Origin: a virus
Lineage: Duplodnaviria > Caudoviricetes
Length of the DNA stretch: 64,000 bases
IMG/VR virus record: IMGVR_UViG_3300028797_000100
Span: 99,721 to 163,720 of that record
Reading direction: 5' to 3' (one strand)
Positions within the stretch are counted from its first letter, which is position 1. Each line of letters opens with the position of its first letter. Positions 53,823-60,048 of the stretch are shown here, one piece after another. Position numbers and translations under genes: made by a program. Below the pieces are notes generated by a model. It saw nothing but the letters and a program-made list of their open reading frames with translations. It was not told the DNA's origin and did no database searches.

Positions 53823-54683
53823 ATGAATGAAGATGTGAGCATTATTGATCGTAAAAGACAATTTCGTTCTCGTCTCAATTCTCTTCCAATAGAGCTCAAA
53901 TGTGAGATTGGTGAGATCCCTCTTCAGAAGGGTCTTAGAGCAACCTCCAGAAAAGAGAAAGTGATTGAGCTTCTAAATAAATATCATATAGATTATATAG
54001 AAATAGGTACTGGTACAAATAGATTCATTATCAAGTATGATGGATATGCTGTAAAGATCGCTCTTGATAGAGAAGGCGTTGCAGATAATATTCAGGAATT
54101 CTCGATATGTGAATCTCTGATGCCAAATGTTGCTTACGCGTACGAGATTAGTAGTGGTGGCCACCTATTGGTGGCCGCTTACTGTCCCGCTTTTACGTCG
54201 CAATCAGAAATGTGGTCTCACAATGCCAAAATCAGAGAGATCCTTGGTGAATGGAGTAAAAGATATTTGTTAGGTGATGTTGGTATGACTGATAGAACCT
54301 TTGCAAATTGGGGACTCGCTCCCGGTGGTAGACCTGTGTGTATTGATTATGCATATATCTTCCCGTCAACAATGGATCAGTTTGAATGTATTTGTGGCAA
54401 TAGACAAATGACATTTGCCAGATCAGATTTCTCAACATATAAGTGTACGGTATGTGGAAAGGAATATGAAGATAGAGAATTGAGAGCTAGAATCTCGAGC
54501 GAAGAAAGAATAAGACTATTCGAAGGTACTAAGGGTATCACGATGACTCAAGAATATGAGATGCATGATGTTGACCTTAAGTATATTAAAATGGATGACA
54601 ATCCTGATATGCCAGATCCATATGATGTAGCCAACACAACAGTTGACCACATTTATGGTAGACCTACATCGGGATGGTTATAA
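53823..54683 (+). CDS. Protein kinase-like protein with C-terminal Zn ribbon
   Basis: IGTGTNR (P-loop), AVKIA, NIQE, GDVG...NWG, CIDYA, CICG...CTVCG. Start ATG 53823 follows aaggag. Confidence 0.75.
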   Translation: MNEDVSIIDRKRQFRSRLNSLPIELKCEIGEIPLQKGLRATSRKEKVIELLNKYHIDYIEIGTGTNRFIIKYDGYAVKIALDREGVADNIQEFSICESLMPNVAYAYEISSGGHLLVAAYCPAFTSQSEMWSHNAKIREILGEWSKRYLLGDVGMTDRTFANWGLAPGGRPVCIDYAYIFPSTMDQFECICGNRQMTFARSDFSTYKCTVCGKEYEDRELRARISSEERIRLFEGTKGITMTQEYEMHDVDLKYIKMDDNPDMPDPYDVANTTVDHIYGRPTSGWL

Positions 54684-54696
54684 AGGAGGAAAGAAA

Positions 54697-55440
54697 ATGA
54701 AATACTGGGACTTATTATTCACAGTGGGTGCTAAGACGTCTGCACCCACTATTGATGAAAAAGTCGCATCCGTAATCAAAGATGCTGCCAGAGAAGCAAT
54801 CCAGGAAATCATTCCAGCACCACAACCAGTAATGGTTGATGAGAATGCTTTAGGTAAGTTAATCGATGATGCTGTTGCAAAGCATGTTCCCGCACAGGTA
54901 GAGGCCAAGCCTGATGTAGAGTTAAATGACAAAGTCAACATGATGATGCAGCTGATGAAGGAACTTGCTGAAAAGGATAACTCTGCTCCAGCCAATTTTG
55001 ATTCATACGCTCTGAATGATGGTGAAATCTCACAGGTACTCACTTGGTTACTTAACTTCCAGGAGAAGTACTTCCCGAATACACCATTATCAGATACACT
55101 CCATCAGGACTTCATGTGGAATATTCCTAAAGAAGTCTATAATGCAGCATATGATGCGGAAGTACTCGGATATCCGGATGCTTTGAATCCGATCTATTGG
55201 TTCTACATGTTCTGTCTGGACTGTCCTCATGATATGATTGGTGAATTTATAATGAATGCTATCAATGGAATATCAGATGAAGACAGTGAAGTCATCGCTT
55301 CTCATGCAAAAGAATACCGTCGTGTATACTTTGATGAGGAAGAAGCTGTGATATCACCCGTTCAACCAGGTGAATCATCAATCGAAGACTTCGACGCAGA
55401 TATATCTGTAGAGACTATCGGAGCTAGTGAAGAAGAATAA
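54697..55440 (+). CDS. Acidic hypothetical protein
   Basis: ATG 54697 follows RBS aaggagg; terminator at 55447-55476. Confidence 0.75.
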   Translation: MKYWDLLFTVGAKTSAPTIDEKVASVIKDAAREAIQEIIPAPQPVMVDENALGKLIDDAVAKHVPAQVEAKPDVELNDKVNMMMQLMKELAEKDNSAPANFDSYALNDGEISQVLTWLLNFQEKYFPNTPLSDTLHQDFMWNIPKEVYNAAYDAEVLGYPDALNPIYWFYMFCLDCPHDMIGEFIMNAINGISDEDSEVIASHAKEYRRVYFDEEEAVISPVQPGESSIEDFDADISVETIGASEEE

Positions 55441-55487
55441 GATTATGTGGGGCATTAGCCCCACTTCTTATTTTTTCTATTTTTCAA

Positions 55488-55499: not shown

Positions 55500-55612
55500 T
55501 ATATGCTAATCAAAATAAAATGAATTTTATTCATTAAAAATGAAAGGAGAAGTGTTCTCGTGGAACAATAAACCACGTGTTGTCTCCGGTGACTAACATC
55601 ACCGACGTGAGA

Positions 55613-56768
55613 CGTAAAGTATAAATTTAGCTCGACATAACATGTACTGCTTCGTTCTGGTAACGTGGACCGAGGTTTTGTATTGTTCTGTGCTGTTAAG
55701 TGGGGGTCCTGTAGGGCGGTGTCTGGCAATGTAGGGTATAGGTGTGTGTTGTCCGGGTATAGTTGCGGCAATTGCAGTCAGGCTATGGTGATGGCTTTGT
55801 GTCGTGAAGTGTAGATCAGTACAGCTACGCACAGGTTTAGTTCAGTGAGGTTCTGTTTGATCCGGTGCTGGTTAGGTCTGGGACGGTCCGGTTCGGTATG
55901 GCAGGGTATGGTTCAGTCTTGGTATGGCCTGGTAGAGAATGGTACAGTTCTGTCTCGGTATGGTCAGATTAGGTGTCATAAGGTCCTGTTGCGGTAAAGT
56001 TGAGTTGTGCCTTATGAGATACAGTGACGGTACAGCTCGGTTATGTCAGATGGTGTGTGGTTCAGGTAAGGCAAGGCTCGGCTTCGTTGTGGTTCTGTCA
56101 AGTAACACATAGCAATGTTAAGGTGGTTACGGTTTAGCGGGGAGTCGTCAAATGTTGTTTTGGTGTGGTCATGTTTGGTATTATCTCGTAAGGTGCTGGT
56201 GCAGGTTCGTAGTGTGCGGCTTCATCGTGTGTTGGTGTGGTAAGGTTAAGCATGGCTTTGTGATGATCTGTTCGTGCTGTCATGGTATGGTTAAGTTGAC
56301 CAAGGTAATGTTAGGCTCTGTTATGCTCCGGTTGAGTAGGGTAATGATGGCTCGGTACTGGTATGGTCTTGTGCCATATCGCGAGATTAGGTTACGGTGG
56401 AGCTCGGTTAGGCAGGCTGCCGATCGGTAACGCGTGGTTCGGGTTCGGCCAGGTAAAGTTAGTCATGGCTAAGTGATGGTACAGTAGAGCTTAGTGCGGT
56501 GTCGTGTAGTCCCGGTACGGTAGTGGCGTGTTCTGTTGCATGTGGTCGTGTTATGCGTTGGTATGGTAATGTCGGGTTGGGCGCGGCGCGGAGTGTTACG
56601 TGGTGTTACGCGATGGCTTGGTACGGCATTGGAAGGTACAGATTAGCTCTGTGAAGTTATGGTAGGGTTATGTTGTTGATGGTAGCGTTCGATGGCGTTC
56701 TGGTAAAGTGCCGTTCGACTGCGTGCAGTTGAGTTACGTAATGGCAAAGCAGAGTTTTGGTTCTGTGC
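55613..56768 (+). repeat. GGY/NRY-NN pentamer array, probable non-coding (guide-like) RNA
   Basis: G/T-rich and A-poor, with 5-nt periodicity (e.g. ggtaa ggcaa ggctc ggctt). Consecutive 36-nt units start at 55920, 55956, 55992 and 56028. Flanked by hairpins. No credible CDS. Confidence 0.85.
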
Positions 56769-56880
56769 GGGTTTGGTCAACCCGTTGTCAATTATTTAAG
56801 GGGGTGGTGCTTCAAAATAGAATTATCTCAGGTGACAGTTGATTAGCGACGAGAAAATCTATTAAAGGAGTAAAAAGAAA

Positions 56881-57441
56881 ATGGTCAACATCAAAGATTT
56901 AGGAAAAGCCGAGGTGTTAAAGACACTTTGGGAACATTCTCATACACAGGGAATGTCATTCTTGGGGTTACTCGGTCTCGAGAATGGAGTATTTACTATC
57001 GAACATGCAAGAGAATTGGTTGATTCAAACCCACGTCTCTATTTTGATTATGTCGACGGACATGTGATCAAATGTGATCTTAGTGGAGATGAGTTTGATG
57101 AGCGGTTGTATGACCGTGATTGTGGCAAGGGTATGGCTCAGAAAGCCATTGATCATTTAAGAAAGGAGGTAGCTGTAATGGAATCTAAGTATGAAGGCAG
57201 CGTCGTTGAACTTAAGATATCTAGAGCTAAGGACAATGACAAAGTTGCTGAAGCATTCCATAATGCATTTGTCGGCAAAGACTATTACCGCGACAGTAGT
57301 GTCATAATAAATAAAGATCCTGACATTACTACAGGTAATGAGCAATCCAGAATATGTATCTGTGTTGATGAAATAGACGACATCGGCGAGATCATAGACC
57401 TGATTGCTAATACTCTGAAGTCTCTCAAAGACTTAATATGA
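56881..57441 (+). CDS. Hypothetical protein (N-terminal domain with YFDYxxG..K.D and YDRD.G.G motifs)
   Basis: RBS aaaggag. An internal RBS aaggagg before ATG 57178 suggests a two-domain fusion or an internal start. Confidence 0.7.
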   Translation: MVNIKDLGKAEVLKTLWEHSHTQGMSFLGLLGLENGVFTIEHARELVDSNPRLYFDYVDGHVIKCDLSGDEFDERLYDRDCGKGMAQKAIDHLRKEVAVMESKYEGSVVELKISRAKDNDKVAEAFHNAFVGKDYYRDSSVIINKDPDITTGNEQSRICICVDEIDDIGEIIDLIANTLKSLKDLI

Positions 57442-59151: not shown

Positions 59152-60048
59152 ATGGCTATACTCACTTCAGATAATCTCCTTGAAATATGGGAACCTGTAA
59201 TCCCAGGGGTTGAAGGAACAATCGTTATCGTCGGTGTGAATGCAGATGATAAGACCATCCTTGCACAACAGCTGCTCAATAAAGAACTTTGTACCGATGT
59301 AATTCATTATAATATGAATACATTCGACCAGGTGTTTAAACCACGTGGAGATAAGTGGTCATTCAAAGATACCGAGGTACCAGAAGAATCCAAAGGATTG
59401 GGTGTCTTTAAATTAAATAATAAGGGTGATGTTGTTTCCACCAAAATACTCGGTGAGTTTACTGGATGTGAAAACTATCTTAAGATGGATGGTGACAAAG
59501 CTCAGTTTGATTCTGGCGCTATTCGTTACACTAAAACAGGTAAAGGTAGATATGACCTCGTCCCTGGTGACGAAATCTCCGACATAATTGGTTATGCGAA
59601 CGATCTCTGGGTTGGGAAGAATGTAATTGCTATATCAAAGGCGAACATAATCGAAGATGCATATCGTGGTACCCCTTATGATAGATTCGCAAATACAGTT
59701 ATAAATCTTATCATATATCACTATGCACCATATGACATCGTTCAAAATGACATAGGTATGACTGCACATGAGGTAACACCTGTATCATTTGATGCTGGTG
59801 TAGCACCAATGCTGAGAGATTTGGCTATACACTACGAGAATGGTGCCGAGAAGTACGGCGTTGATAACTGGAAGAAAGGCATTCCAGTTACAGGTGGTGA
59901 TAGAGGTGGTTCATTTATGGATTCAGCTATGCGTCATCTTACACAGTATCTTATCGGTCTTACAGATGAACCCCATCAGATATCATGTATCTGGAATTGT
60001 GTATGTGGTCTATGGACACTCCATCAGGAAGAGTTAAAGAAAGATTAA
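59152..60048 (+). CDS. DUF5664-type dATP/dGTP diphosphohydrolase domain protein
   Basis: FDSGAIR...KGRYDLVP ... HYENGAEKYGVDNWKKGIP...DSAMRHL...H...WN. Confidence 0.75.
   Translation: MAILTSDNLLEIWEPVIPGVEGTIVIVGVNADDKTILAQQLLNKELCTDVIHYNMNTFDQVFKPRGDKWSFKDTEVPEESKGLGVFKLNNKGDVVSTKILGEFTGCENYLKMDGDKAQFDSGAIRYTKTGKGRYDLVPGDEISDIIGYANDLWVGKNVIAISKANIIEDAYRGTPYDRFANTVINLIIYHYAPYDIVQNDIGMTAHEVTPVSFDAGVAPMLRDLAIHYENGAEKYGVDNWKKGIPVTGGDRGGSFMDSAMRHLTQYLIGLTDEPHQISCIWNCVCGLWTLHQEELKKD

What the first reader, a model, noticed from the sequence alone, without database searches (positions are those of the whole stretch)
55833..56063. Higher-order 36-nt units (1 nt + 7 pentamers) inside the array
Seen: the 5-nt phase slips by one extra base before a GGT at regular intervals. 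Units of exactly 36 nt start at 55833, 55920, 55956, 55992 and 56028 (e.g. c ggtaa agttg agttg tgcct tatga gatac agtga). Other units are 26, 31, 41 or 51 nt, i.e. 5n+1. Inference: the +1 slips mark the boundaries of individual guides or processing sites. Each 36-nt unit would carry 14 variable nt, and the array would hold about 30 units.
Basis: partly seen in the sequence, partly recalled or inferred. Interest (0 to 1): 0.8.

Follow-up and report, generated by a model that had tools for sequence, protein, structure and literature searches.

The report
Guide boundaries in phage VIPR array
The regularly spaced one-base slips are real and separate about 25-30 short guide RNAs in the third guide array of a rumen jumbo phage's VIPR system (a CRISPR-related DNA silencer described in 2026), two of which match a rival temperate phage's gene exactly from slip to slip, so this is a well-supported new example of a known kind.

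Summary
Observation confirmed. Window 55560-56790 is a gene-free, GT-rich RNA gene: a structured leader, then about 225 pentamers of the form n-G-Y-N-N. The 5-nt phase slips by +1 thirty times. After 29 of 30 slips the next pentamer is GGY, against 40% G at that position inside units. Spacing is far from random (P<=5e-5), and 36 nt is the modal length.

It is a 'staggered' vrRNA array of a VIPR system (bioRxiv 10.64898/2026.04.26.720920). The same genome encodes a Cas7/Csm3-fold protein with the Vipr G-loop motif next to a sister array. Seven related phages show the same gene-plus-array layout.

- Homology blocks between orthologous arrays start and end at the slips, and units are swapped as cassettes.
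- An 83-nt deletion, seen in contigs from two studies, removes exactly three units.
- Two units of this array match an amidoligase gene of temperate phages perfectly (22/22 and 16/16 guide bases). They follow the published skip-one-base rule, in frame, and the match stops at both slips.

RNA processing itself is not shown. This scan reached the same VIPR reading for the two sister arrays of this genome.

The parts
55447..55464 (+). Terminator hairpin of the upstream gene (54643-55440). It is followed by an AT-rich spacer conserved in the relatives L114 and L115, which is the presumed promoter region of the array.
   Evidence: Terminator-like site found. No sigma-70 consensus promoter was found in that scan. 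The spacer is conserved in L114/L115.
55560..55626 (+). Array leader: hairpin P1 (CGTGG...CCACG), an invariant GTTGTC, then helix P2 (GTCTC...GAGAC) closing a variable hairpin P3. There is one leader per array, not one per guide.
   Evidence: The first 62 nt match the leader of a sister array at 84%. In the alignment of 12 leaders, P1 covaries by eye (CGTGG/CCACG, ATCGT/ACGAT, GTAGT/ACTAC), and P2 has one pair switching CG:8 to GC:4.
55659..56780 (+). Staggered vrRNA array. It holds about 225 n-G-Y-N-N pentamers in about 25-30 units of the form GGYNN-(nGYNN)k-n, with unit lengths 5n+1.
   Evidence: Tiling. Boundary logo over 353 units of 12 arrays.
55834..55869 (+). 36-nt unit (7 repeats). It is absent, together with 55787-55833, in contigs of runs X3 and X9. 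Its guide dinucleotides are 7/7 identical in L115 despite 14% sequence change.
55870..55920 (+). 51-nt unit (10 repeats). Conserved in L115 (92% identity, 8/10 dinucleotides).
   Evidence: No exact target found.
55921..55956 (+). 36-nt unit. L115 has an unrelated 36-nt cassette at this position (42% identity, 1/7 dinucleotides).
55957..55992 (+). 36-nt unit, conserved in L114 and L115 (7/7 dinucleotides in L115).
55993..56064 (+). Two 36-nt units (55993-56028 and 56029-56064), each 97% identical to units of L114. There they sit in a different array context.
56560..56614 (+). 11-repeat guide; its 7th repeat is a 4-mer, GGAG. The dinucleotides AT AA CG TG GC GC AG TA GG TA GA match the codons of MNRWAARYGYE in a temperate-phage amidoligase gene, 22/22, on the sense strand, with the skipped base at the wobble position.
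   Evidence: The match stops at both flanking slips. P is about 8e-9 per guide in the 68.7 kb searched.
56661..56701 (+). 8-repeat guide. The dinucleotides AG TA TG AT AG TC GG TC match, antisense and in frame, the EPELIQYL codons of the same amidoligase gene (16/16) in 19-20 viral contigs.
   Evidence: The dinucleotides are identical in L115 despite four scaffold changes.
56781..56835 (+). 3' end element conserved in the orthologous arrays (..CCCGTTGTCAATTATTTAAGGGGGTGGTGC..). There is no intrinsic terminator here, unlike the two sister arrays, so read-through into the gene at 56881 is possible.
   Evidence: sequence.

Best explanation
The stretch is the third guide-RNA array of a VIPR system carried by a large rumen phage.

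The array is transcribed on the + strand from an AT-rich region, through one structured leader, as a single precursor of about 1.2 kb. Copies of the phage's Cas7-like Vipr protein bind one per 5-nt repeat. The gene lies outside the window, at genome 66943-67839, next to a sister array. Each protomer holds the G-Y and exposes the two following bases.

Each run of 5-11 in-register repeats is one guide. It begins with a full GGY and ends with a strongly conserved GY-NN plus one extra, usually pyrimidine, base. That extra base puts the next guide one base out of register. The cooperative protein filament therefore cannot run on, and the slip delimits the guide, whether or not the RNA is also cut there.

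Each guide reads double-stranded DNA by the published rule: two bases paired, one skipped. It thus reads codon positions 1-2 of conserved protein motifs in rival elements.

Shown here: the unit structure, its non-randomness, the Cas7-like fold and G-loop motif of the protein, cassette-wise evolution at the slips, the constraint on positions 4-5, and perfect slip-to-slip matches of two guides to an amidoligase gene of temperate phages.

Inferred, not shown: transcription, filament termination at the slip, cleavage, and silencing.
For: Unit structure and statistics.

The system:
- A 298-aa protein encoded next to sister array B folds (pLDDT 80) like Csm3/Cas7 of type III and VII CRISPR complexes (Foldseek E 2e-6, probability 1.0).
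- Its invariant G-x-G-Q-W-R aligns with the GGY-binding G-loop G-V-G-D-W-R of the experimentally studied SUSP1 Vipr (hhalign E 1.5e-4, probability 51%).
- All six relatives' contigs examined (out of 26 homologs) show the layout vipr, then a ~145-aa ORF, then a 0.7-2.3 kb array with the same G+(GYNNN)n units.

Boundaries:
- Homology blocks against orthologous arrays begin and end at the slips.
- An 83-nt deletion of three whole units occurs in contigs of two studies.
- One unit is replaced by a cassette of equal length.

Code: substitution rates per pentamer phase are 0.22, 0.05, 0.19, 0.09 and 0.12.

Targets:
- Guide 56661 gives 35 hits in viral contigs. Of these, 19-20 fall in one ~375-aa Amidoligase_2 / phrog_16683 family, all differing only at the skipped wobble bases.
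- Guide 56560 matches 22/22 bases 261 nt upstream in the same gene.
- Guides of L105, L103 and L116 hit the same operon at other motifs.
- The target contig carries tyrosine and serine integrases and an endolysin.

Literature: staggered vrRNA arrays offset by 1 nt, and YNNNG-type repeats, are described in bioRxiv 10.64898/2026.04.26.720920. One protomer per repeat is described in 10.64898/2026.04.26.720927.
Against: - No RNA evidence exists for this locus. No listed sequencing run is on record as RNA, so neither transcription nor ends at the slips are shown.
- The vipr gene is 87 kb from this array.
- The genome record is only 61% complete.
- No target was found for the five 36-nt units named in the finding. 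Unit 55834 has only a 13/14 match, which is not significant.
- In L114 the copy of guide 56560 has an extra base after its second repeat. So a +1 slip can lie inside a stretch that is one guide by target complementarity. Not every slip is a boundary.
- Several contig joints lie 5-11 nt from a boundary rather than on it.
- The sequence similarity to SUSP1 Vipr is weak and covers 48 columns only.
Confidence: 0.85

Rival explanations
1. The units are functional guide segments, but the array is never cut. It acts as one long beads-on-a-string ribonucleoprotein. Each slip is a hinge between adjacent short Vipr filaments, and each filament scans DNA on its own.
For: There is one leader per array and no per-unit hairpin, ribozyme or tail. 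Only one extra base lies between units. The preprint's staggered arrays were not among the architectures confirmed by small-RNA sequencing.
Against: The legend of fig. S18 of the preprint speaks of individual processed vrRNAs. The type II systems that have been studied give discrete RNAs of about 100 nt. Nothing here can distinguish cut from uncut RNA.
Confidence: 0.2
2. The slips are not boundaries. They are a structural correction that keeps a continuous protein filament in phase with a non-integer repeat of about 5.14 nt (36/7) along the whole RNA.
For: The autocorrelation at lag 36 is almost as high as at lag 5. The spacing is quasi-regular.
Against: Unit lengths range from 26 to 55 nt. 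The modal length differs between related phages: 31 nt in L103/L105 and 36 nt here. Homology blocks, deletions and cassette swaps respect the slips. Target matches of two guides end exactly at the slips on both sides.
Confidence: 0.05
3. The element is not a guide array. It is a protein-binding sponge or scaffold RNA, like a TRAP- or CsrA-type repeat RNA, or a product of replication slippage with random indels.
For: The motif is short, G/U-rich and periodic. No Rfam family matches. This was my own first reading.
Against: A Cas7-fold protein is linked to such arrays in every one of the six relatives' contigs examined. The variable dinucleotides are under purifying selection. They also spell, base for base, conserved codons of a rival phage's gene. 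The slips are not random.
Confidence: 0.02

Closest known systems
VIPR systems with 'staggered' vrRNA arrays and YNNNG-type repeats (bioRxiv 10.64898/2026.04.26.720920, fig. S18 and Methods)
   Same: Both are phage-encoded and pair a single small RAMP protein with an accessory ORF and long intergenic arrays of 5-nt repeats. In both, consecutive guides are offset by one base, so that the end of one marks the start of the next. The repeat is relaxed from GGY-NN to n-G-Y-N-N, the same as YNNNG in another register. The targets are rival mobile elements.
   Different: The preprint gives the architecture in one sentence and one figure and did not confirm it by RNA sequencing.

This locus adds the following:
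- Unit-length statistics: a mode of 7 repeats here and 6 in other clades.
- A full GGY only at the first repeat of each unit.
- Cassette-wise evolution at the slips.
- Natural targets that obey the skip-one rule from slip to slip.

The array studied here also lies 87 kb from the vipr gene. It is one of three arrays in the genome, which together hold about 70-75 guides.
Type II VIPR of Escherichia phage SUSP1 and a Pseudomonas fulva prophage (same preprint; cryo-EM in 10.64898/2026.04.26.720927)
   Same: One protomer binds per 5-nt repeat. The G-loop motif G-x-G-x-W-R is shared. The two variable bases are read with one target base skipped, aligned to codon wobble positions. Either DNA strand can be targeted.
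   Different: SUSP1 vrRNAs are separate ~100-nt RNAs with 9-16 strict GGY-NN repeats, each capped by a conserved 3' pseudoknot tail. Here there is no per-guide tail, guides are shorter (mostly 6-10 repeats), and the first G is required only at the unit start. The residue aligned with the G1-contacting Asp of SUSP1 is Gln. The accessory protein is unrelated to vap1 (hhalign probability 0.2%).
CRISPR arrays with Cas7-family backbone proteins (type I/III/VII effector complexes)
   Same: The RAMP fold of the protein is shared (Foldseek to Csm3/Cas7). In both, an array of many guides follows a leader, and guides are gained, lost and shuffled as cassettes.
   Different: There are no direct repeats or spacers, and no cas1/cas2 or Cas6. 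The guide is non-contiguous: 2 of every 5 RNA bases are read. Punctuation is a 1-nt register shift instead of a repeat hairpin.

Membership tests
VIPR system | A Vipr protein: a small single-RRM RAMP with a G-loop and thumb | tested here: met
   The 298-aa protein at genome 66943-67839 (L100:6943-7839) gives an AF2 model with pLDDT 80. Its best PDB fold matches are Csm3/Cas7 (E 2e-6, probability 1.0). hhalign against SUSP1 Vipr aligns the G-loop (E 1.5e-4, probability 51%). The gene lies outside the window, 87 kb from this array.
VIPR system | vrRNA built of tandem 5-nt repeats with a conserved trinucleotide (GGY or a related consensus) alternating with variable NN | tested here: met
   The profile is n, G 0.87, Y 0.91, N, N over about 600 pentamers of three arrays. 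Positions 4-5 are variable between units but conserved between orthologous units.
VIPR system | NN dinucleotides specify DNA targets with one base skipped per repeat, typically the codon wobble base | tested here: met
   Guide 56560-56614 matches 22/22 and guide 56661-56701 matches 16/16, both in frame, to one amidoligase gene. Shuffled guides reach at best 2-3 mismatches.
VIPR system | Targets lie in competing mobile elements | tested here: met
   The target contigs are viral (IMG/VR). L137 carries tyrosine and serine integrases and an endolysin beside the amidoligase-amidotransferase pair. No excess of self-matches was found in the own genome.
VIPR system | An accessory vap gene beside vipr | tested here: inconclusive
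   A 142-157-aa ORF follows vipr in six of the seven loci, counting this genome's own; the distant L109 locus has none. It has no Pfam hit and no similarity to SUSP1 vap1. Its C-terminal Y-x-D-G-D..N-L motif recalls HNH_3 by eye only.
VIPR system | vrRNA is expressed and co-purifies with Vipr | not testable with these tools
   No listed holder of this DNA is on record as RNA.
VIPR, staggered-array architecture | Consecutive vrRNAs abut with a 1-nt register offset and no intervening tail or ribozyme | tested here: met
   There are 30 +1 steps, with units of 5n+1 nt. No Rfam ribozyme or other family is present in the array.
VIPR type II (SUSP1-like) | Each vrRNA carries a conserved 3' tail with a pseudoknot | tested here: not met
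   No conserved non-repeat segment lies between units. Only one leader and one 3' element exist per array. It is therefore not type II.
CRISPR array | Identical direct repeats of about 25-40 nt separated by unique spacers | tested here: not met
   Tandem Repeats Finder reports nothing in the array except a 10-nt, 2-copy match. The units are not copies of each other.

The most novel reading that the evidence does not exclude
A one-base register shift may be the only punctuation of these arrays. It would stop the cooperative Vipr filament and so set guide length without any handle, hairpin, ribozyme or dedicated processing nuclease. The requirement for a full GGY only at the first repeat, together with the Asp-to-Gln change in the G-loop, would mark a distinct filament-capping or nucleation step. 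If so, staggered arrays are the most compact multi-guide format known, with one non-guide base per guide.
Probability: 0.4. Interest if true: 0.6.

Novelty: new member of a known kind. Interest (0 to 1): 0.4.

Why it matters
VIPR was described only in 2026, and its 'staggered' arrays were proposed from sequence alone. This locus gives natural evidence that the one-base slips are real guide boundaries:
- Evolution handles the units as cassettes.
- Target complementarity starts and stops at the slips.

It also shows that the skip-one-base code holds for the relaxed n-G-Y-N-N repeat. In addition, a clade of rumen jumbo phages aims several independent guides at the amidoligase-amidotransferase operon of temperate phages, which flags that operon as a likely player in phage-phage conflict. 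For engineering, a format with one spacer base per guide would be a very dense way to encode multiplexed guides.

Tried and rejected
- Rfam at gathering scores found only a tRNA elsewhere in the window and nothing in the array.
- blastn and megablast of the array and its flanks against 50,697 phage records gave no match.
- An exact scan of viral contigs with a leader motif returned only chance matches in a coding motif. None had 5-nt periodicity.
- An exact scan of JGI metagenome contigs with 35 nt of this array's leader gave 0 hits.
- A distant relative of the downstream gene (L111, 49% identity) has no array beside it.
- Array C has no BLAST similarity to arrays A and B or to the vipr-linked arrays of relatives.
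- No RNA holder was listed for this DNA, so RNA ends could not be mapped.
- The two 10-repeat guides (55705 and 55870) gave 0 exact hits in viral contigs.
- The 36-nt unit 55957 gave more than 118 hits with no gene-family clustering.
- Skip rules 0, 1 and 2 gave no excess of matches over shuffled guides in the own genome and about 1 Mb of unrelated loci.
- Unit 55834 has a 13/14 in-frame match in one target phage. That is within chance expectation.
- phmmer against PDB sequences and Pfam gave nothing for the Vipr candidate.
- RNAalifold on the leader alignment recovered only helix P2. The alignment of the most distant leaders is poor.
- My first reading, a protein-binding scaffold RNA, was dropped once the RAMP gene and the target matches were found.

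Full report
**What is in the sequence**

Window 55560-56790 has no credible ORF and is G/T-rich (G 34%, T 32%, A 18%, C 15%). Base autocorrelation peaks at lags 5, 10 and 15 and then drifts to 5n+1. Lag 36 (0.396) almost equals lag 5 (0.405), over a background near 0.23. That is the signature of one extra base about every seven pentamers.

I learned a pentamer profile by Viterbi training on this stretch and two sister stretches. The profile is n, G 0.87, Y 0.91, n, n. I then tiled the sequence with units of 5 nt, allowing penalised 4-, 6- and 7-nt steps. The array has 30 six-base steps. Units of exactly 36 nt start at 55834, 55921, 55957, 55993 and 56029. A 51-nt unit starts at 55870 and a 26-nt unit at 56065.

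**Is it more than chance?**

- The pentamer after a slip begins with G in 29 of 30 cases, against 78 of 197 internal pentamers (P=6e-10). Over the genome's three arrays the figures are 74/77 against 180/505 (P=4e-26).
- Slip spacing has a coefficient of variation of 0.46 (0.36-0.46 in the three arrays), with P<=5e-5 against random placement.
- None of 20,000 random placements gave as many seven-repeat units.
- Pooled lengths are 36 nt x27, 41 x10, 46 x8, 31 x5 and 51 x5.

Over 353 units from 12 arrays the boundary has a clear logo. The last repeat has G 0.98 and Y 1.00. The extra base is T 0.44, C 0.26, G 0.11. The first repeat is G 0.98, G 0.99, Y 0.98.

**Context in the genome**

The window is part of a 163.7-kb IMG/VR virus record, estimated 61% complete. 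A periodicity scan of the whole record finds three such arrays: genome 17.1-18.1 kb (A), 68.3-69.5 kb (B) and this one (C). All three lie on the + strand.

Each array begins with a conserved leader of about 65 nt. The leader has a hairpin, an invariant GTTGTC, and a helix (GTCTC...GAGAC) closing a variable hairpin. Covariation is visible across 12 leaders. Arrays A and B end in clear intrinsic terminators. Array C has no terminator. It has a 3' element that is conserved in its orthologues.

**Identification**

The notes of this scan on arrays A and B pointed to VIPR, and I checked this myself. The preprints describe:
- a phage-borne RAMP protein (Vipr) that binds one protomer per 5-nt repeat of a vrRNA, holding GGY and exposing NN;
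- NN read against DNA with every third base skipped;
- alternative repeats such as YNNNG;
- 'staggered arrays' in which consecutive vrRNAs are offset by 1 nt. That architecture was not among those confirmed by RNA sequencing.

Upstream of array B lies a 298-aa ORF with no Pfam or PDB sequence match. With an alignment of 26 homologues it folds at pLDDT 80. Its best structural matches are Csm3/Cas7 subunits of type III-A and type VII complexes (E 2e-6, probability 1.0).

I located the SUSP1 VIPR locus in KT454805 from its GGYNN runs. The family profile aligns with the SUSP1 Vipr over the C-terminal G-loop: G-T-G-Q-W-R against G-V-G-D-W-R (E 1.5e-4, probability 51%). By my alignment, allowing a two-residue numbering offset, the SUSP1 Asp that the structure paper describes as contacting the first G is Gln here. 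That fits the relaxed first position, but it is only a correlation.

All six relatives' contigs examined show vipr followed by a 0.7-2.3 kb array with the same G+(GYNNN)n units; five of them also carry a ~145-aa ORF between the two. The modal unit is 36 nt in three of them and 31 nt in two. So the system is a VIPR with staggered arrays. It is not type II, because there is no per-guide tail.

**Are the slips guide boundaries? Comparative evidence**

Array C has orthologues upstream of homologues of the downstream gene in L114 (91% protein identity), L115 (74%) and L116 (66%).
- Of 15 homology blocks, 5 start exactly on a unit start and one at -1. Eight end 3-4 nt into the next unit, which is its generic GGT (P=7e-5 and 3e-7).
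- Units change neighbours. The unit at 56198 sits between different units in L114.
- The apparent 71-nt unit 56091-56161 is 31 + remnant + 31, compared with L114's 31 + 26 + 31.
- Within the finding's own span, units 55834 and 55957 keep 7/7 guide dinucleotides in L115 although 14% and 3% of their bases differ. Unit 55921 is replaced by an unrelated 36-nt cassette (42% identity, 1/7).
- The same holds for array B against L102 and L107, with a rearrangement breakpoint exactly at 69298/69299.

I also laid contigs of four bovine-gut runs from four studies on the window. The flanks are conserved and the array is a mosaic. Contigs from two studies carry a clean deletion of 55787-55869, which is 83 nt or exactly three units. 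Many other joint ends lie within 3 nt of unit starts, but several lie 5-11 nt away.

**Which bases carry the information?**

In 38 homologous pairs of clean units, substitutions per position are 0.22 (position 1), 0.05 (G), 0.19 (Y, mostly C/T exchange), 0.09 and 0.12 (positions 4 and 5). Positions 4-5 are constrained relative to position 1 (P=8e-5).

**Targets**

Guide 56661-56701 keeps all eight dinucleotides in L115 despite four scaffold changes. Scanned with the skip-one rule, it gave 35 exact hits in viral contigs. Of these, 19-20 lie at the same place in one ~375-aa protein family (Amidoligase_2, phrog_16683). They are antisense and in frame, spell EPELIQYL, and differ from one another only at the skipped wobble bases.

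Unit 56560-56614 is a single 11-repeat guide whose seventh repeat is a 4-mer. Its dinucleotides match the codons of MNRWAARYGYE in the same gene, 22 of 22, on the sense strand. On both sides the match stops exactly at the slips. The neighbouring units' dinucleotides do not fit the adjacent codons. The chance of such a match in the 68.7 kb searched is about 8e-9 per guide.

Guides of other phages hit the same operon at other motifs:
- L105 at EYGYKPxPIFYG (exact);
- L103 (one mismatch);
- L116 at AAEERGT, in the adjacent glutamine amidotransferase.

Over five whole target records, real guides give 45 hits against 15-28 for shuffled guides. Of the real hits 82% are wobble-aligned, against 48% for shuffled guides. 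The target contig L137 carries tyrosine and serine integrases and an endolysin, so it is a temperate phage.

**Caveats**

- No RNA data exist for this DNA, so transcription, cleavage and silencing are inferred.
- None of the five 36-nt units named in the finding has an identified target.
- In L114 the copy of the 11-repeat guide has an extra base after repeat 2. So a slip can occur inside a guide, and the very short 'units' of 6-16 nt should not be counted as guides.
- The number of real guides in this array is nearer 25 than 30.

**Verdict**

The element is a new member of a known kind: a VIPR system with staggered vrRNA arrays, already recognised by this scan for the two sister arrays of the same genome. 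What this locus adds is natural evidence, from evolution and from targets, that the one-base slips delimit guides.

Noticed in passing
L137:3031-5125 and G001-G005 (target phages): At least five different guides from four or five related jumbo phages aim at conserved motifs of one amidoligase + glutamine amidotransferase operon of temperate phages. The operon sits beside the integrase genes. It may itself be a weapon in phage-phage conflict.
   Followed up: partly
G005:C1:21505-21542: Three guides from two other phages (L105 12264 exact, L107 12599 exact, L105 12577 with one mismatch) overlap within 40 nt of one gene (peptide ..NNDNSRTVNQTNN..). This looks like a second target hot spot.
   Followed up: no
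window 56560-56614: The seventh repeat of the 11-repeat guide is GGAG, where L114 has GGTAG. This one-base loss in the scaffold leaves the target register intact but shortens the RNA repeat. It could be a decaying guide, a tolerated variant or an assembly error.
   Followed up: partly
L109:13569-15029: In the locus of the most distant Vipr homologue (227 aa), a reverse transcriptase gene (RVT_1) lies about 2 kb downstream of the array.
   Followed up: no
L103:11407-13743 and L105:11459-13721: These relatives carry two arrays in tandem. Each has its own copy of the leader, and most units are 31 nt rather than 36 nt.
   Followed up: partly
L101:5480-7143 (genome 15480-17143) and L100:7893-8366: Array A is preceded by a 387-aa protein with an HNH_3 match (E 1.2e-5). 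The 157-aa ORF between vipr and array B ends in a similar Y-x-D-G-N..N-L motif. The accessory proteins may therefore be HNH-related.
   Followed up: partly
window 56781-56880: Array C lacks the intrinsic terminator seen after arrays A and B. It ends in a conserved element that contains CCGTTGTC, like the leader core. Read-through into the 186-aa gene at 56881 is possible.
   Followed up: no
window 59152-60048: The 298-aa protein matches phrog_18716 and the N-terminal domain of dATP/dGTP pyrophosphohydrolases. The gene is syntenic in all relatives of this locus.
   Followed up: no
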